64,000 nt of DNA, from IMG/VR virus record IMGVR_UViG_3300042868_003731, positions 89,967-153,966 of that record, one strand, 5' to 3'. This stretch comes from a virus. Taxonomy: Duplodnaviria; Heunggongvirae; Uroviricota; Caudoviricetes. The position numbers and the translations under genes were made by a program. Below are positions 1 to 11,013 of this stretch, piece by piece. Within the stretch, counting starts at the first letter, position 1; every line of letters begins with the position of its first letter. The notes beneath the pieces were generated by a model. That model did no database searches, was not told the origin of the DNA, and was given only the letters and a program-made list of their open reading frames with translations.

Positions 1-1
1 G

Positions 2-217
2 TACAAGATGAAGGATGTTGATCTAAACTTTGTTCGATCCTTTGTGAATGGATATAGGAAGGTAATTGCTCTCGGTGGTTTTGCCTCGCAGGCACTTAAG
101 CGAGCAGGAGTGGAACACTATACCCTTCCGCACCCGTCTCCATTGAACCGAAAGCTAAACGATAGAGAATATGAAAACAATTGTCTAAAGGAATGTAAAG
201 AGTGGCTAAGAACTTAA
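2..217 (+). CDS. Uracil-DNA-glycosylase-superfamily-like protein, 5' end outside the window
   Basis: Frame is open to the left edge. VIALGGFASQAL and LPHPSPLN resemble the C-terminal UDG-fold motifs (ALG...A and HPS). Confidence 0.55.
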   Translation, partial: YKMKDVDLNFVRSFVNGYRKVIALGGFASQALKRAGVEHYTLPHPSPLNRKLNDREYENNCLKECKEWLRT

Positions 218-870
218 CTGATATATACGTTGGTGTAAAGAAGGACGACCCAGATCGTAAAGAAAACGACTTCTATCCAACACCGCCACTCGCAACTTAC
301 ATTCTGTGTAAGTATGTTCGTCCACCAAAGAATGTGGTTGAACCCTGCGCGGGCCGAGGTAATATTTCGATCGAACTCCAAAGAAACGGTCATAATGTAA
401 AATCGTTCGATCTTAACGAATATGATAATAGTCTCGTAGACATCGAAACTAGCATTGATGTTCTTGAGCTCGAACGACCAACCGGATACGAAGGTTTGAT
501 TACGAACCCTCCGTATCATAAGGATCTTCCTCGAAAGATTACAGAGAAAGCTCTATCGGAATATCCATACGTAGCAATGTTTGTTCGTCTTACGTTTCTT
601 GAAGGAAAGAAGCGAAAAAACTTGTTTACAAAATACCCTCCAAGTGATATTATATTTCTAAGTGATAGAATTAATTTTGGTTCGGGCTTAGTAGAGCCCA
701 TAAATAAGACACATCAGCTTGGCGGCATGATCGCATATATGTGGATCGTCTGGGACAGAAGGTCGAGCAACTTCGATCGTTCAACAAAGCTGCACTGGGC
801 TTTATTAGAAGATGAATATGACGAATGGAGAACACATTATGATCAACGTAGTAATTCCAGCGGCGGGTGA
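202..870 (+). CDS. DNA amino-methyltransferase (N6-adenine type)
   Basis: RKENDFYPTP N-terminus, SAM-binding VVEPCAGRG (motif I) and catalytic ITNPPY (motif IV). Confidence 0.85.
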   Translation: MAKNLTDIYVGVKKDDPDRKENDFYPTPPLATYILCKYVRPPKNVVEPCAGRGNISIELQRNGHNVKSFDLNEYDNSLVDIETSIDVLELERPTGYEGLITNPPYHKDLPRKITEKALSEYPYVAMFVRLTFLEGKKRKNLFTKYPPSDIIFLSDRINFGSGLVEPINKTHQLGGMIAYMWIVWDRRSSNFDRSTKLHWALLEDEYDEWRTHYDQRSNSSGG

Positions 871-2347
871 GGCTACTCGTCTTCGGCCGCTAACATCGAA
901 CTGTTCCAAAGCAATGGTTCGCGTACATGGTAAACCAACAATCGAGTACATCATCGAGTCGATCTATAAGAATACTCCAGATATCGGAGAGATCGTAATC
1001 GTTGACGGCAAGCATGATGATATTCGTGAATGGGCTACAAAGAGTGCCTATAGCGATGATATTCGTTGCGTAAAGCAGGGATCGTTGAACGGTCCCCGTG
1101 ATGCTATTCGTGTTGGTATTGCAGAGCTGTCGAATAAAGATATGCCGCTCGTCGTATGGCTTGGAGACGCAATCATTCTTGATAATGATCTTCCACTAGG
1201 CACCGACTTTCTTCTTACGAAAGAAGTTGAAGACCACTTTGCGTGGTGTATGTGGGATGGTAAGGAATTCTTCAATAAACCAACGGAGACGGTTCCAAAT
1301 GCTGCTGCACTCGTTGGCCTGTATAGTTTCGCAGATGGTGTAGGCGCTGACTATGCGTTCTCCTCAGCGACTGAGTACGACATCTCGTTTGCCCTTGAGA
1401 AGTATGCGCGTTCAACTTCAAGATCTTTTAACCGTATTAATACGAGCAACTGGTACGACATTGGTGACATTGCTTCGTATCATCGTACATGCGCAGAGTT
1501 CCTTACTTTTAAAGCTCGTGCATTCAATTCGTTTCAGTACGACCCAGAACTCAACGTAGTTACGAAGGTACCAAACTATACGAATGAGTTCGCTGTTCGT
1601 ACTGTCATGAACGAAAAGTCTTGGTACAAAGCTCTCAATTCAAAGCAGCGAATGTTCGTTCCAAAGGTGCTAGATGATGACTACGGCCTATCTCTGTCTT
1701 ATGAGTCCGGTACTCTGCTCTCGGATCTATTCATCCACGAGGACATTTCTAAGAGTACTATCGACTATCTAATTGAAAAGGTTGTACTTTCTGTTCGAAA
1801 CAACTTTCATCAGAGACCTAGTCTTGAGTTTCTAAAAGACTTTAGCAGTAACGCAAATGCCATGTGGATCCAAAAGACAACTGAAAGACTCAATAAGTCT
1901 GGCCTAAGTTCTTCTGAGCAAGGATATTACGGGCGGATCGCTGAAAGATGTATGAACCGAGCTGAGCCTGTTCTGGCTATGCATGGCGATTTACATTTTG
2001 GAAATATATTGTATAATCCATATAACGATAGCATTACTCTCTTGGATCCTCGTGGAGAATACGGCAATCATGTTGGTTGCGGCGGCGATCATCTATACGA
2101 CCTGTGTAAACTCTCTCACGATCTCTATCATGGATACAACTCGCTGTTTCAGAGCAAGGCGTATCCTAAGTATGTTCGTGAAAGTTTCTCAAAGATTATT
2201 CGAAAGTATTATTCAAAAGAGTATCGTGAGATCATCGATGGTGGCGCATTGCTTATCGCGACAGCCATTCCTCTTCACTATGACAGCTCTATTCGACAGG
2301 AACAAATGAAGGAATATGTAATTGAGTACGCAAACTCTAGTCATTGA
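839..2347 (+). CDS. Sugar-phosphate nucleotidyltransferase fused to an APH/choline-kinase-like domain
   Basis: Start moved to ATG 839 (GGAG at 827-830). N-terminal VIPAAGEATRLRPLT..SKAMV.VHGKP and WLGD are NTP-transferase motifs. C-terminal HGDLHFGNIL and LLDPRG are the phosphotransferase Brenner and DxR-type motifs. Confidence 0.8.
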   Translation: MINVVIPAAGEATRLRPLTSNCSKAMVRVHGKPTIEYIIESIYKNTPDIGEIVIVDGKHDDIREWATKSAYSDDIRCVKQGSLNGPRDAIRVGIAELSNKDMPLVVWLGDAIILDNDLPLGTDFLLTKEVEDHFAWCMWDGKEFFNKPTETVPNAAALVGLYSFADGVGADYAFSSATEYDISFALEKYARSTSRSFNRINTSNWYDIGDIASYHRTCAEFLTFKARAFNSFQYDPELNVVTKVPNYTNEFAVRTVMNEKSWYKALNSKQRMFVPKVLDDDYGLSLSYESGTLLSDLFIHEDISKSTIDYLIEKVVLSVRNNFHQRPSLEFLKDFSSNANAMWIQKTTERLNKSGLSSSEQGYYGRIAERCMNRAEPVLAMHGDLHFGNILYNPYNDSITLLDPRGEYGNHVGCGGDHLYDLCKLSHDLYHGYNSLFQSKAYPKYVRESFSKIIRKYYSKEYREIIDGGALLIATAIPLHYDSSIRQEQMKEYVIEYANSSH

Positions 2348-2687
2348 TATTGATCATACGATCTGTACGCCTAACGATGGCGAGAAGGATACGTTCGAAA
2401 AGTATGGCAAGGCGACACCAAAACTCGAAATGATCGAAAGCATTCGTAAAGCAAAAGAAAAGGGCTTTCGTATCGTTCTGTTTACTGCGAGGCGAATGGC
2501 CACTCATAATGGTGATATAAATAAAGTCATAGAGGATGTTGGCGATCTTACGGTTAATTGGCTTAAAGAAAACAACGTTCCATACGATGAACTAATGTTT
2601 GGTAAACCGAATGCGGTCTACTACGTTGATGATAAGGCTCTAAGGCCAGATGAATTTGTGAAATTTATAGAATGGGATACACTATGA
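2322..2687 (+). CDS. Short HAD-superfamily phosphatase (capsule-locus BcbF-like)
   Basis: TTG start with AAGGA upstream. HAD motifs VIDIDHTI (DxDxT), LFTAR, FGKP and YYVDDKA. Confidence 0.8.
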   Translation: MSTQTLVIDIDHTICTPNDGEKDTFEKYGKATPKLEMIESIRKAKEKGFRIVLFTARRMATHNGDINKVIEDVGDLTVNWLKENNVPYDELMFGKPNAVYYVDDKALRPDEFVKFIEWDTL

Positions 2688-3928
2688 AGAACATTGGTTT
2701 TTGCAAGATTGGTAAATCTGTAAAGTTTAAGACGAATAAGTACTCGCCTATCGGCGGAGACAACGAAGCTTCTTGCACACTACGAGCAGTTGCGAACAAC
2801 AATCCTGATAAGAAGTTCTATATCGTTGGTCGCTCTGACTTCGGTACTCTTACAGAATCTGAGAAAGCAGATCTCTTTCCATACGATAACGTGATTGATG
2901 TATGGGAAGGTGTTGGTCTTGAGATTTCTCAGAAGTACTTTGATCACGTCGTCAATTACTTTAAAGAAAAGAAAGTTACTCTCGACTTTACCATTATGAT
3001 GGTTGGTCAGCTCAGCAACGTTACGATTCCGGATCGCATTCAGAAGGTTCGTGAAGGTAACGATGGAAAGCCTGCTGCGACTCTCGATATGACCAAGTGG
3101 TATACGACTCCAATCGTTACTTGGCTGAACCAAGAGCAGGTTCCGTATATTGAAATCGTTAATGATCCTCGCTATACGATTAAGCAACCTCGCGATCTGT
3201 TTCACATGCCAATGCGTTCTCTTGGTCAGTATGATTATGATTATGAAACGTTTGCGATTCGCGACTATGTTGATCAGGAACGCATCACTCGCGTAGTTCA
3301 TTCGGAATATGCAGGTATGGAGACGGCCTTCTGCGGAGACTACGAATACACTGAAGAAGTCAACGTAAATCGTAACACAAACTTTATGGTCGTTCTTAAC
3401 GAAGGCAAGCCGTCTCGCTACGACCTTCTGAAGGAATGGGTTCTCAACAAGTTCGATAACGTTGAAGTCTATGGCAAGTGGGAACATGGTGCAGCAACTG
3501 TTGACTCTCGGTTTAAAGGATCGTTGCACATCAACGAGCTGCAGAAGAAACTTCAGGACGTAAAGTTTACTTTCATCATTCCGATTAAGGAAGGCTGGGT
3601 TACATCTAAGTATATTGAGATGATCCATGCTGGTGTTATTCCATTCCTGCATCCGACCTATGATATGCAAGGTCATCTACCAATTCCAGAGTTTCTACGT
3701 CCAAAGACTCCAGAAGAGTTCTTTCGCCGTATGGAGATGGTAGATACACATGAAGCGCATCAGAACCTTCTTAAGGAACTACGCAAGGCAGTGCTTAAGC
3801 CTGAGTACTACGATGGTACTTTTATTAATGATAAGATTATGAATGCTTTCGACACGAACTACACTCGTCCTGATGTTCAAGCATTTGAAAAAAAGACTAT
3901 AACAACACTTGCAGATTTTTTCGTATAA
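2684..3928 (+). CDS. GT-B fold glycosyltransferase, T4 beta-glucosyltransferase-like (putative DNA glycosyltransferase)
   Basis: ATGA overlap with the HAD gene. C-terminal half SRYDLLKEW..VEVYGKW..FKGSL..FTFIIP..WVTSKYIEMIHAGVIPFL follows the GT-B donor-binding pattern. It lies in a DNA-modification cluster. BGT similarity is remote. Confidence 0.6.
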   Translation: MKNIGFCKIGKSVKFKTNKYSPIGGDNEASCTLRAVANNNPDKKFYIVGRSDFGTLTESEKADLFPYDNVIDVWEGVGLEISQKYFDHVVNYFKEKKVTLDFTIMMVGQLSNVTIPDRIQKVREGNDGKPAATLDMTKWYTTPIVTWLNQEQVPYIEIVNDPRYTIKQPRDLFHMPMRSLGQYDYDYETFAIRDYVDQERITRVVHSEYAGMETAFCGDYEYTEEVNVNRNTNFMVVLNEGKPSRYDLLKEWVLNKFDNVEVYGKWEHGAATVDSRFKGSLHINELQKKLQDVKFTFIIPIKEGWVTSKYIEMIHAGVIPFLHPTYDMQGHLPIPEFLRPKTPEEFFRRMEMVDTHEAHQNLLKELRKAVLKPEYYDGTFINDKIMNAFDTNYTRPDVQAFEKKTITTLADFFV

Positions 3929-3941
3929 AGGATAAAGAATA

Positions 3942-5159
3942 ATGAGTGATATTACTTGGGTACCTCATATCCCACTTATCGGTGGACAGATGCTAGGAGC
4001 CGAAAAAGCTTTTGGCGTTCCACCTCTTGCTATCTATTCATACGATGGATTTCAAGCAAACGATAGTCACTACGTAAACTATCAGAATAACGTAAAGGGC
4101 AGAGGACTCGAGTATCGACTCTTGGATAACGGCCCACCTATTCATAAGGTAGATGTTGTCTCTGGTACTCCTCCTTGTGCAGCTCTATCGCAGCTAAACA
4201 CAGGTCAGACAGTTGAATCAAAAGGTGCTGCTTGTGCAAAGAACGAATGGATGTATAAAGTCTTCGAGGACGCGATTGATCTGTTTGAAGCAAAGGCTGT
4301 AGTAGTCGAGAACGCGCCTGCTCTCTATACGAATAAAGGTCGTGCAGTCGCAAACAATTTGTTTGACATTTGTAATAAAAGAGGGTATAGTTTAACTCTG
4401 TACAAAACATCAACGATGTATCACGGCATTCCGCAAGCTCGCGATCGAACCTTTGCTATCGGCTGGAAATCAGAGAAGGCTCCGATCATGTCTTGGTTTA
4501 AACGCGATCGTAAAAACTTTAAAGAGTACTTGTCCGAGTTGCAACAGAACACGCTTCAGCAAGACTTGGTTATCAATTCCAAGTTGGATGATGAACCGTA
4601 TTACGCGTTTATTAAATCAAGAACGAACGACAATCCGAGGGATGTTATTATTAAGAGCGGTAACATTACAGCTTTCAACTATATCAATCGTGCTGGTCTG
4701 CTTGAAGAAGCAAATAAGTGGATGCATCAGGTTGGCCACGAACGCGGAATTAAAGTATCGGAACACGCTATTAAAAAGTTTGCGGACAACAAGGGTATCT
4801 GGGATAGCTCAACACACGTCTTTGACGAATGCATGAACGCTGTGATTGGTCGTAACCTTGCTGATACGATCCATCCTATTCACGATCGTTCGCTTACGAT
4901 TCGTGAAGCTCTGCATATGATGGGTTTCCCTCACGATTTTGAATTGGTCGGTGGACTCGCAAAGATGAACCACATCGCTCAGAACGTTCCGGTTCCTACG
5001 TCGCGCGATATTCATTCTGAAATCGCCAAGTTCATTCGCGGAGAGCTTCCTCTATCCGGAACAAACTATCTTCGTCAGAACAATCACTACGAAAAGAACG
5101 AGTACGACCCGCTAGGTTCGGGAAGTCAAAACGCAACACTTGAAGGATTCTTTGTATGA
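3942..5159 (+). CDS. C5-cytosine DNA methyltransferase-like protein with divergent cofactor motifs
   Basis: Motif IV SGTPPC, motif VI VVVENAP, motif VIII PQARDRTF and motif IX LTIREALHMMGFP.DF are present. Motif I reads PHIPLIGG instead of xFxGxGG. Confidence 0.8.
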   Translation: MSDITWVPHIPLIGGQMLGAEKAFGVPPLAIYSYDGFQANDSHYVNYQNNVKGRGLEYRLLDNGPPIHKVDVVSGTPPCAALSQLNTGQTVESKGAACAKNEWMYKVFEDAIDLFEAKAVVVENAPALYTNKGRAVANNLFDICNKRGYSLTLYKTSTMYHGIPQARDRTFAIGWKSEKAPIMSWFKRDRKNFKEYLSELQQNTLQQDLVINSKLDDEPYYAFIKSRTNDNPRDVIIKSGNITAFNYINRAGLLEEANKWMHQVGHERGIKVSEHAIKKFADNKGIWDSSTHVFDECMNAVIGRNLADTIHPIHDRSLTIREALHMMGFPHDFELVGGLAKMNHIAQNVPVPTSRDIHSEIAKFIRGELPLSGTNYLRQNNHYEKNEYDPLGSGSQNATLEGFFV

Positions 5160-5788: not shown

Positions 5789-6667
5789 ATGATGCAACTA
5801 CAGATTACAGCAGAACACCTACGAAAATATTCTATCTTTGTTGGAACGCCGATGTATGGTGGGCAGTGCGCAGGAATGTTCTGTAAATCTACGAACGACC
5901 TAGCATCTCTCTGTGCCAAATACAACATCGATCTTAAGTTCTATTATCTATTTAATGAAAGCTTAGTTCAAAGGGCAAGGAACTATGTAGTAGATGAATT
6001 CATGAGGTCAGACTGCACACATCTTATGTTTATCGATGCTGATATTGGTTTCAGACCTAATGATGTACTGTCGATGCTCGGTATTCAGACCATGCACCCG
6101 GATCAGTATGATATCATGACTGGTCCGTATCCAAAGAAAACGATTGCTTGGGAAAAGGTAAAGAAGGCGGTAGAGATGGGAAAGGCGGAGAATCCTTTCG
6201 ACTTGGACTTCTATACAGCCGACTACGTGTTCAACCCAGCAAAGGGAACCACGTCTTTCCGTATTGACCAACCTATCGAAGTGAGCGAGGCTGGTACCGG
6301 ATTTATGCTTATACCTCGAGCCGTGTTGGAAAAATACAGAGACGCATACCCAGAACTCAAGTATATTCCTGACCACGCTCGCACGAAGAACTTCGATGGT
6401 TCGCGTGAGATCACCGCTTTCTTTGATTGCATTATCGATCCTATTTCAAAGCGGTACCTGTCTGAAGATTACTTCTTCTGTCGCAAAGCAAGAGAAGTGG
6501 GAATTAAGTTGCACCTGTGTCCTTGGATGGAACTGCAGCACGTCGGTTCGTATATCTTTAAGGGATCGATGGGCGCGATCGCTTCTATCGGTGAAACGCC
6601 AACCGCAGGAAAGAGATCAAACGAAAAGACATATAAAGAAAAGAAGAAACAAGCATTTAGACCGTGA
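5789..6667 (+). CDS. GT-A fold glycosyltransferase (GT2-like)
   Basis: IFVGTPMYGG, NESLVQRARN, HLMFIDADI (DxD), GTGFMLI and LSEDYFFC. Confidence 0.75.
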   Translation: MMQLQITAEHLRKYSIFVGTPMYGGQCAGMFCKSTNDLASLCAKYNIDLKFYYLFNESLVQRARNYVVDEFMRSDCTHLMFIDADIGFRPNDVLSMLGIQTMHPDQYDIMTGPYPKKTIAWEKVKKAVEMGKAENPFDLDFYTADYVFNPAKGTTSFRIDQPIEVSEAGTGFMLIPRAVLEKYRDAYPELKYIPDHARTKNFDGSREITAFFDCIIDPISKRYLSEDYFFCRKAREVGIKLHLCPWMELQHVGSYIFKGSMGAIASIGETPTAGKRSNEKTYKEKKKQAFRP

Positions 6668-6734: not shown

Positions 6735-7400
6735 ATGAAATTTTCTGACCGCACTCTTACAATTCTCAAGAGTTTTGCTACAATCAACAAATCAATCGTA
6801 CTGAAGCCTGGCCAGGTCTTGCGTACGATTACTCCGGAAAAAAACTTCATCGCCATCGCAAACATTGAAGATCAGTTCCCAACCACTGCTGTTATCTATG
6901 ATCTCTCACGTTTTCTTTCGATGCTGAGCCTTTATCAAGACCCAGATGTGGAATTCCTTGAAAATCATTTCATCATCTCTGAAGGCAAGCTTAAGATGAA
7001 ATATGTCTATGCAGACATCTCGATGGTCCATGCAGCTCCAGAAAAAGAAATCGCCATTCCTTCTTCCGACGTTTCGGTTAGCGTGAAATGGTCCGATCTT
7101 CAGTCTGTGATCAAGGCTGCTGGTGTTTTGCAGTTTAGCGAAATCGCATTCGTCGGCGAAGATGGCAAGTGCTTCCTTCGAGCAATCGACAGTAATAACA
7201 AATCGTCAGACGCATTTGGTGTAGAGATTGGTACCACCAACGACACGTTTACTCTCATCCTTAAGACTGACAACTTTAAGTTGCTTCCTCAGGATTACGA
7301 AGTGACTCTCTGCGCAAAGGGTGTATCGCTCTTCAAGGGTGCTGATGTATCCTATTACGTTGGTGTTGACTCTAAGTCAACGTACAAGAAAGGAGAGTAA
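6735..7400 (+). CDS. 45: Sliding clamp gp45
   Basis: MKFSDRTLTILKSFATINKSI..G..LRTI, IYDLSRFLSMLS; followed by gp44 and gp62 as in T4. Confidence 0.93.
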   Translation: MKFSDRTLTILKSFATINKSIVLKPGQVLRTITPEKNFIAIANIEDQFPTTAVIYDLSRFLSMLSLYQDPDVEFLENHFIISEGKLKMKYVYADISMVHAAPEKEIAIPSSDVSVSVKWSDLQSVIKAAGVLQFSEIAFVGEDGKCFLRAIDSNNKSSDAFGVEIGTTNDTFTLILKTDNFKLLPQDYEVTLCAKGVSLFKGADVSYYVGVDSKSTYKKGE

Positions 7401-10407: not shown

Positions 10408-11013
10408 ATGACAGAGAAACATCACGCACCAAAGGATGTTTCTGATAGGATCGCGTTGGGCTTTACAAAGGCCCTTCGCTTTATTGCGGATACCTTCTTT
10501 AAAAAGAGATACGGTCATCGAGCTGTGGTTCTAGAGACCGTGGCGGCAGTACCAGGAATGGTCGCGGGCGCAGGATTGCATCTTAAATCTTTGCGCACAA
10601 TGAAAGACGATCGAGGTTGGATTAAAGAACTTTTAGATGAAGCAGATAACGAACGTATGCATCTTATGACATTCGTTGAACTCGCAAAACCAAATATGTT
10701 TGAGCGTATCATCATCTTAATCGCACAGGCAATCTTTGTTGGTTTCTATGCAATCGTATATTTCTTTTTTCCAAAGACTGCACATCGCATCATTGGTTAC
10801 TTTGAAGAAGAAGCCGTTCGATCCTATACAGAGTTTCTTTCTGAGATAGACAGCGGAAAGATACAGAACGTTCCGGCTCCAAGGATCGCAATTGATTATT
10901 GGAAGCTGCCAGAAGACGCAACTCTACGTGACGTTGTTCTCGTAGTAAGAGAAGATGAAGCAGGTCACAGGGATAGAAATCATGAAATGGCTGATGAACT
11001 TAATCACAAGTAA
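10408..11013 (+). CDS. aox: Alternative oxidase (AOX, di-iron ubiquinol oxidase)
   Basis: RYGHRAVVLETVAAVPGM, LLDEADNERMHLMTF, GYFEEEAVRSY, PAPRIAIDYWKLP and VREDEAGHRDRNH. All iron-ligand motifs are present. Confidence 0.95.
   Translation: MTEKHHAPKDVSDRIALGFTKALRFIADTFFKKRYGHRAVVLETVAAVPGMVAGAGLHLKSLRTMKDDRGWIKELLDEADNERMHLMTFVELAKPNMFERIIILIAQAIFVGFYAIVYFFFPKTAHRIIGYFEEEAVRSYTEFLSEIDSGKIQNVPAPRIAIDYWKLPEDATLRDVVLVVREDEAGHRDRNHEMADELNHK

What the first reader, a model, noticed from the sequence alone, without database searches (positions are those of the whole stretch)
3942..5159. C5-MTase with intact catalytic motifs but both cofactor-binding motifs rewritten
Seen: motifs IV (PPC), VI (ENA), VIII (QxRxR) and IX are intact. 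Motif I reads PHIPLIGG (the FxGxG Phe and first Gly are lost), the motif II acidic residue is unclear (YSYDGF), and motif X reads IAQNVP instead of IGNAVP. Known: the Cys/Glu/Arg set alone activates C5, and cofactor-free C5-MTases add aldehydes to C5 in vitro. Inference: the enzyme may use a donor other than SAM, giving a hydroxylated handle for the neighbouring GT.
Basis: partly seen in the sequence, partly recalled or inferred. Interest (0 to 1): 0.75.

Follow-up and report, generated by a model that had tools for sequence, protein, structure and literature searches.

The report
Remodelled cytosine methylase, phage to copepod
This lake-phage gene keeps the parts a DNA cytosine methylase uses to attack cytosine but has a consistently rebuilt cofactor pocket; it belongs to a large untested family that occurs in phages making hydroxymethylcytosine and that also moved into copepod genomes, so it may carry out a DNA-base reaction other than ordinary methylation.

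Summary
Observation confirmed. The 405-aa protein has a C5-methyltransferase fold and intact catalytic residues, with motifs I, II and X rewritten. The rewrite is not decay: it is near-invariant across 134 representatives under 50% identity, and dN/dS is about 0.02-0.11.

A T4-type dCMP hydroxymethylase lies about 0.8 kb upstream of the window. Such dCMP-specific synthases accompany the family in 22 of 28 records, and the six without are 11-30% complete. Phage 9183 has the same glycosyltransferase without this gene.

Best reading (0.42): the enzyme acts on hydroxymethylcytosine already in DNA, removing or exchanging its CH2OH group. Main rival (0.33): a SAM methylase with an atypical pocket that fills in residual cytosines. 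No activity has been measured.

Earlier scan notes saw the hydroxymethylcytosine link on other DNA and called the family phage-only. New here: one clade nested among the phage genes sits in animal genomes (Neocalanus transcripts, intronless genes among animal exons, CXXC/zinc-finger fusions) with the same pocket. Cultured carriers (S-TIM5, XG4, phage G) make it testable.

The parts
3942..5159 (+). C5-MTase-fold gene with a rebuilt cofactor pocket (405 aa, P0001)
3963..3986 (+). Rewritten motif I (residues 8-15): Phe to Ile, first Gly to Leu, terminal GG kept
4035..4064 (+). Rewritten motif II (residues 32-41): Glu to Ser33, aromatic Tyr34 kept, new Asn40-Asp41
4125..4127 (+). Asp62, probable motif III (adenine-contact) Asp; register inferred from secondary structure, profile alignments disagree
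   Evidence: ambiguous
4170..4181 (+). Motif IV with catalytic Cys79; canonical Gln after the Cys replaced by Ala80
4308..4319 (+). Motif VI (ENAP), Glu123 invariant
4434..4448 (+). Motif VIII (QxRxR), both Arg invariant
4776..4778 (+). Lys279, family-specific (94%), also in phage G gp301; role unknown
4974..5000 (+). Rewritten motif X (residues 345-353): Gly to Gln347, Asn348 kept, Ala/Ser to Val349
5136..5156 (+). C-terminal tail (TLEGFFV) resembling a gp45 clamp-binding peptide
   Evidence: sequence; similar tails in some relatives; weak model support
2672..3928 (+). GT-B protein resembling T4 beta-glucosyltransferase; usual upstream neighbour
   Evidence: Atlas feature hits 0.95-0.96 to PF09198 clusters, a lead without E-value; linkage
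812..2347 (+). NTP-transferase fused to an APH-like kinase; variable sugar-activation module
2322..2687 (+). HAD phosphatase of the same variable module
6735..7400 (+). gp45 sliding clamp, candidate docking partner

Best explanation
A post-replicative enzyme whose substrate in the phage is 5-hydroxymethylcytosine (hmC) already in DNA, not plain cytosine. Shown here: the genome encodes a T4-type dCMP hydroxymethylase, a dNMP kinase, a MazG-like pyrophosphatase and a BGT-like glycosyltransferase; the enzyme keeps Cys79, Glu123, Arg167 and Arg169. Inferred: hmC replaces much or all cytosine; the enzyme flips an hmC that the GT left bare and attacks C6 with Cys79; the rebuilt cavity at C5 (Ala80 for Gln, Gln347 for Gly, Asn348, Asn40/Asp41) holds the CH2OH group. 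The likeliest product is cytosine plus formaldehyde (about 0.24), next a thio- or aminomethyl derivative from a small nucleophile bound in the old SAM site (about 0.18). Both are known side reactions of ordinary C5-MTases; here one would have become the main job. Tethering to the sliding clamp is a further, weakly supported inference.
For: (1) Co-occurrence: 20 of 28 records with the family have a gp42-like match; S-TIM5 and S-TIM54 have a divergent one found by HMM; the six without are 11-30% complete. The own genome and phage G also have one. All carry Asp at the ThyA N177 position (dCMP-specific) and keep D169, so they are not 5-hydroxycytosine synthases (diagnostics from PMC13326640). It spans T4-like phages, Aurunvirus S-TIM5 and Donellivirus G. 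Background: 970 of 50,697 phage records; 0 of 4 phages with canonical C5-MTases. (2) In loci found through the clamp-loader gene, with at least 7 kb upstream: both genes 10, this gene only 3, synthase only 1, neither 10. (3) Five canonical SAM-site positions are replaced family-wide while all cytosine-attacking residues are invariant, under dN/dS 0.02-0.11. [quoted passage not shown] From memory, that engineered enzyme and engineered M.HhaI carry the same PCQ Gln-to-Ala change.
Against: No activity has been measured for any member. The copepod clade keeps the same pocket with no pre-replicative hmC; it would need TET-made hmC, which I could not check. Part of the adenine side of the site looks kept (GG, Tyr34, Asp62 in 61 of 62 animal-clade sequences, Asn348), and Asp41 could replace the lost Glu, which suits SAM binding. 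Stripping hmC could expose the phage's DNA to its own cytosine-specific nucleases (a weak endonuclease match lies upstream, E 0.01). The co-occurrence records include close kin and fragments, so they are not independent counts, and cassette inheritance could explain part of it. Full replacement of C is inferred: the MazG-like protein is not shown to be a dCTPase, and none was detected in S-TIM5.
Confidence: 0.42

Rival explanations
1. It is still a SAM-dependent C5 methylase with an atypical pocket. In hmC phages it methylates cytosines that escaped replacement (or re-methylates after stripping hmC), and copepods took it up as a DNMT.
For: Kept GG, Tyr34, Asp62 and Asn348; Asp/Glu41 may stand in for the motif II Glu. 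It is the only PF00145 gene in S-TIM5, whose DNA I recall being reported as methylated at all cytosines after purines (Sabehi et al. 2012, PNAS 109:2037; from memory, paper not held). Animal copies are fused to a CXXC finger (E 7e-7) or weak C2H2 fingers, as a DNMT might be.
Against: Leu in place of the first motif I Gly (98%), Ser for Glu, Gln for Gly and Val for Ala/Ser are hard to square with normal SAM binding. A plain methylase has no reason to be confined to phages with dCMP-modifying synthases. Bisulfite cannot tell 5mC from hmC (PMC2811190), so the S-TIM5 report may not show 5mC; I could not read its method. No clear GC/AC depletion in the own genome (0.96, 0.97).
Confidence: 0.33
2. 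One reading: it adds an aldehyde or other one-carbon unit to unmodified C, making the GT's handle after replication (a DNA-level hydroxymethylase, possibly a back-up for the nucleotide route).
For: A GT lies in the same locus in most cases with enough sequence. C5-MTases add aldehydes in vitro (Liutkeviciute 2009, seen only as a reference title). No TET found.
Against: If it made the handle itself, some genomes should have it with a GT and no dCMP-modifying synthase; none did among the near-complete genomes (own, G009, G010, XG4, S-TIM5, S-TIM54, phage G). The same GT family exists without it in phage 9183.
Confidence: 0.12
3. It binds an adenosyl ligand in a shifted pose (SAM as aminocarboxypropyl donor, decarboxy-SAM, CoA, NADPH) and transfers a larger group or a hydride to C5 or its CH2OH.
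For: Adenine-side residues look kept while ribose- and methionine-side residues change; the cavity at C5 looks enlarged (Ala80).
Against: No partner gene for such a cofactor travels with it; not CmoX-like; no docking was possible.
Confidence: 0.11
4. A decaying or catalytically dead methylase.
For: Loss of the textbook SAM motifs.
Against: dN/dS 0.02-0.11 over 13 pairs; motif residues fixed while their codons vary; catalytic residues 100% in 134 representatives.
Confidence: 0.02

Closest known systems
SAM-dependent DNA C5-methyltransferases (PF00145; M.HhaI, M.HaeIII, M.MpeI, DNMT1)
   Same: Fold (Z 22-24), Cys/Glu/Arg-x-Arg catalytic set, motif IX.
   Different: Motifs I, II and X and the Gln after the catalytic Cys are replaced family-wide; found in genomes whose C5 is probably already substituted; 13-19% identity.
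CmoX carboxymethyltransferase of Synechococcus phage S-B43 (PDB 8YF3; PMC12783734)
   Same: Phage C5-MTase fold used for a non-methyl reaction; Z 23.0.
   Different: CmoX keeps Phe25, Glu47, Phe48 and Asp69 for the adenosine and has Arg at HhaI Asn304. Here Asn is kept, Phe and Glu are lost, and no CmoA is encoded.
Phage C5-MT + TET + GT clusters (Burke et al. 2021, PMC8256090)
   Same: C5-MTase-fold gene beside DNA glycosyltransferases.
   Different: There hmC is made on DNA by MT then TET. Here no TET was detected and a dCMP hydroxymethylase is present. Whether their inactive clades III-IV overlap this family was not checked.
T-even hmC/glucosyl-hmC pathway (T4 gp42, BGT, AGT) and phage 9183 cluster
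   Same: gp42-type synthase (E 1e-70 to 1b49), kinase, GT, deaminase.
   Different: T4 and 9183 have no member of this family; it is an added step.
Bacillus phage G gp301
   Same: Sister lineage (E 3e-45): ENAP, the Lys279 segment and Gln at motif X; near an alpha-GT; genome has an N177D synthase.
   Different: Motif I reads AFIFGG, a Glu is kept near motif II, motif X reads AQGVP; also uncharacterised as far as I found.
Horizontally acquired N4CMT of bdelloid rotifers (Rodriguez 2022; title seen, rest from memory)
   Same: A prokaryote-type DNA-modifying enzyme taken into an animal genome and fused to a chromatin-reading domain.
   Different: Different enzyme class, a phage rather than bacterial source, and no activity shown for the copepod genes.

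Membership tests
SAM-dependent DNA C5-methyltransferase | C5-MTase fold | tested here: met
   (3g7u Z 24.1, rmsd 2.9, 280 aligned)
SAM-dependent DNA C5-methyltransferase | Catalytic Cys (IV), Glu (VI), RxR (VIII) | tested here: met
   100% in 134 representatives
SAM-dependent DNA C5-methyltransferase | Motif I FxGxG | tested here: not met
   IPLIGG; L12 98%
SAM-dependent DNA C5-methyltransferase | Motif II acidic residue binding the ribose | tested here: not met
   Ser33 at that position, 83%; D/E41 might compensate
SAM-dependent DNA C5-methyltransferase | Motif III Asp contacting adenine | tested here: inconclusive
   Asp62 fits by secondary-structure register; profile alignments place it elsewhere
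SAM-dependent DNA C5-methyltransferase | Motif X G-N-[AS]-V | tested here: not met
   Q-N-V-P, only Asn kept
SAM-dependent DNA C5-methyltransferase | Binds SAM and forms 5mC | not testable with these tools
   No coordinates or ligand score available; the ligand was not scored
CmoX carboxymethyltransferase | Arg at the HhaI Asn304 position | tested here: not met
   Asn348, 98%
CmoX carboxymethyltransferase | CmoA in the genome | tested here: not met
   0 of 5 records, control rings in E. coli
Phage C5-MT/TET/GT system | TET/JBP dioxygenase in the genome | tested here: inconclusive
   None over cut-off in the own genome or 28 records, but no positive control rang
T4-type pre-replicative hmC pathway (the surrounding locus) | Synthase with N177D, acidic 143, D169 and catalytic Cys | tested here: met
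   G000:88536-89198 (PMC13326640)
T4-type pre-replicative hmC pathway (the surrounding locus) | dNMP kinase and DNA glycosyltransferase | tested here: met
   kinase E 7e-10; GT by Atlas features only, a lead
T4-type pre-replicative hmC pathway (the surrounding locus) | dCTPase that removes dCTP | tested here: inconclusive
   MazG-like pyrophosphatase at G000:85570-85986, substrate unknown
5-hydroxycytosine (RB69/DLP3) pathway | D169N in the synthase | tested here: not met
   D169 kept here and in all partner synthases read

The most novel reading that the evidence does not exclude
The family is a dedicated 5hmC dehydroxymethylase (a direct hmC-to-C eraser) built on the C5-MTase fold, evolved in hmC phages and transferred once into copepods, where it expanded, gained CXXC/zinc-finger domains and could give an animal a direct route to erase 5hmC.
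Probability: 0.17. Interest if true: 0.92.

Novelty: new variant of a known kind. Interest (0 to 1): 0.72.

Why it matters
If it acts on hmC, it would be a natural enzyme whose main job is a reaction so far known as a side activity of methylases, and a possible tool for 5hmC mapping. Whether cells erase 5hmC directly is a long-standing question; this family offers concrete candidates. If it is instead a SAM methylase, it shows a SAM site without FxGxG or the motif II acid, and its 'methylase' labels would finally have a test. Either way, a phage DNA-modifying gene fixed and expanded in copepod genomes is something I found no report of in a limited search. Cultured carriers (S-TIM5, XG4, phage G) allow a direct answer.

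Tried and rejected
Pseudogene or relaxed selection: rejected. Carboxy-SAM/CmoX: rejected. 5-hydroxycytosine pathway: rejected (D169 kept). Cluster-made sugar as the ligand: disfavoured, since the sugar module varies (NTP-transferase/HAD, a UDP-galactopyranose-mutase-like gene, an inositol-phosphate-synthase-like gene, epimerases, alpha-GT; read by eye from ORF starts) while the pocket does not. TET partner: none found, but with no positive control. SAM docking: not possible; SAM rode along unscored. Dinucleotide depletion as a trace of 5mC: uninformative (own GC 0.96, AC 0.97; S-TIM5 AC 0.87, GC 1.06). The S-TIM5 paper and Iyer 2013 are not held, and searches for a citing statement failed. Genome-contig scan with P0001 found nothing; it reaches close relatives only. 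Scans with P0179 and P0269 found no loci, so those subclades have no context. Sequencing runs: lake-water DNA holders that may be the source, no usable RNA. S-TIM5 gp053 is ThyX, not a gp42 homologue, and its alpha-GT shows no sequence match to the window's GT.

Full report
1. Observation. The ORF at 3942-5159 (+) encodes 405 aa in a complete 218-kb T4-like phage record found in lake-water metagenomes. It matches PF00145 at E 3e-22. The AlphaFold2 model (pLDDT 95.8) matches C5-MTases best (Z 22-24). Alignment to canonical enzymes shows Phe to Ile10, first Gly to Leu12, motif II Glu to Ser33, and motif X G-N-A-V to Q-N-V-P. The Gln after the catalytic Cys is also replaced (Ala80), and a new Asn40-Asp41 pair appears.

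2. It is a family trait. There are 740 homologues at 90% clustering and 274 clusters at 50% identity with E up to 1e-30. In 134 full-length representatives the rewritten residues are about as conserved as the catalytic ones. dN/dS is about 0.02-0.11 over 13 pairs, and motif residues stay fixed while their codons vary. Cultured carriers are Pseudoalteromonas phage XG4 (47%), the S-TIM5 group (30%) and, as a sister lineage, Bacillus phage G gp301.

3. About 0.8 kb upstream of the window (G000:88536-89198) lies a T4 gp42-type gene (E 1e-70 to 1b49). It keeps the catalytic Cys, Asp at ThyA 143 and 177, and D169. By the diagnostics in PMC13326640 that is a dCMP hydroxymethylase, not a 5-hydroxy synthase. 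A dNMP kinase, dCMP deaminase and MazG-like pyrophosphatase are nearby. The GT at 2672-3928 resembles T4 beta-glucosyltransferase (a lead). So the GT's handle is most simply made at the nucleotide level. Enterococcus phage 9183 has that module, GT family included, without this gene.

4. Co-occurrence. Of 28 records carrying the family, 20 have a gp42-like match and S-TIM5 and S-TIM54 have a divergent one. The six without are 11-30% complete. All are dCMP-specific and keep D169; S-TIM5's has Cys rather than Asp at 143, so it could be a dCMP methylase. Phage G has one too. The background is 970 of 50,697 phage records, and 0 of 4 phages with canonical C5-MTases. Among loci found through the clamp loader, the two genes go together (10, 3, 1, 10; Fisher p 0.0013), but these loci are kin and were scored only within the fetched DNA. 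The link runs one way: many gp42 phages lack the family. GT type and sugar genes vary while the pocket does not. No TET (no positive control) and no CmoA were found.

5. Animal clade. Long members carry a CXXC finger (E 7e-7) or weak C2H2 fingers. Two clusters come from the Neocalanus flemingeri transcriptome (PMC6105596). On genomic contigs the gene is intronless among exon-like fragments of RhoGEF/SH3 and Ctr or PDI, HSP70 and C1q, with no viral genes called. Seventy sequences form one clade (FastTree support 0.979, midpoint root, no topology test) nested among phage genes; its sister is a phage gene in a replication cluster. All rewritten motifs are kept. Only the Neocalanus sequences are named; that the other contigs are copepod is inferred. 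This contradicts earlier scan notes that called the family phage-only, and means any ligand must exist in both a bacterial cell and an animal nucleus.

6. Mechanism. Shown: fold, catalytic residues, pocket rewrite, selection, gene company. Inferred: the substrate. A normal methylase has little to do where C5 is already substituted, and C5-MTases are known to release the hydroxymethyl group as formaldehyde (PMC11347137) or couple thiols to hmC (PMC7176277). I therefore favour hmC as the substrate (0.42), with removal somewhat ahead of exchange. The SAM-methylase rival (0.33) is close. It fits the kept GG, Tyr34, Asp62 and Asn348, the animal fusions, and my recollection that S-TIM5 DNA was reported methylated at cytosines after purines (Sabehi 2012; not readable here). 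This gene is S-TIM5's only PF00145 match. Bisulfite does not separate 5mC from hmC (PMC2811190), so that pattern could also arise from stripping after pyrimidines.

7. Clamp tether. The protein ends in TLEGFFV and some relatives end in similar tails. A complex prediction with the gp45 clamp gave weak support: score 0.50 against a best control of 0.00; the mark was reached by 58 of 80 solved and 2 of 110 mismatched pairs, but at 0.60 or under by only 7 of the 80 and by both mismatches; runs agreed in at least 63% of contacts, partner pLDDT at least 87. It may reflect likeness to solved clamp-peptide structures.

8. Novelty. It has the fold and C6-attack residues of a C5-MTase but fails three defining SAM-site features, and it is not CmoX or, as far as tested, an MT/TET system. 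I found no paper characterising it in ten searches. The scan has noted the phage part before on other DNA; the animal clade, the cultured carriers with their partner synthases and the 9183 counter-example are added here. Verdict: new variant of a known kind, interest 0.72.

Noticed in passing
L065:371-2185, L067:7065-9386, L358:8566-10893; proteins P0419, P0450, P0210: Intronless family members in animal genomic contigs and Neocalanus flemingeri transcripts, with CXXC or zinc-finger tails: probable phage-to-copepod gene transfer with expansion.
   Followed up: partly
L054:6754-7590 (-) (S-TIM5 gp076): Annotated thymidylate synthase but has Asp at the N177 position and Cys at 143; the phage also has ThyX, an alpha-GT and a weak dNMP kinase match. 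S-TIM5 may make a modified dCMP, which would change the reading of its reported methylation.
   Followed up: partly
L348:7947-9227 and L352 (Bacillus phage G gp301 and second synthase): Sister lineage with a differently rewritten pocket, near an alpha-GT; the genome has an N177D synthase.
   Followed up: partly
L179:6843-9253; L240:1338-3880: Two tandem paralogues of the family in some phages, suggesting different sequence specificities or steps.
   Followed up: no
L030:6866-7999; L056:4238-5344; L046:6898-8004: An unannotated ~370-aa gene inserted between the BGT-like GT and this gene in several phages; possibly a second GT (only a weak GT47 hit, E 0.08).
   Followed up: partly
L222:7325-7684 (G000:89824-90183, runs into window 1-217): Small UDG-superfamily protein (E 4e-5) within the hmC cluster, between the dCMP deaminase and the amino-MTase-like gene.
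   Followed up: no
window 202-870: Amino-methyltransferase-like gene (phrog_799, NPPY motif) in the same operon, present in only some relatives.
   Followed up: no
window 5789-6667: GT-A-like gene (phrog_1574) kept before the clamp gene even in relatives lacking the hmC cluster (L320), so probably not part of it.
   Followed up: partly
window 10408-11013: Alternative oxidase (PF01786, E 5e-83) in a phage.
   Followed up: no
C-termini of phage family members: Tails fall into two types, gp45-like (LxxFF) and ones ending in xLF that resemble the bacterial beta-clamp motif, perhaps tracking the clamp each phage uses.
   Followed up: no
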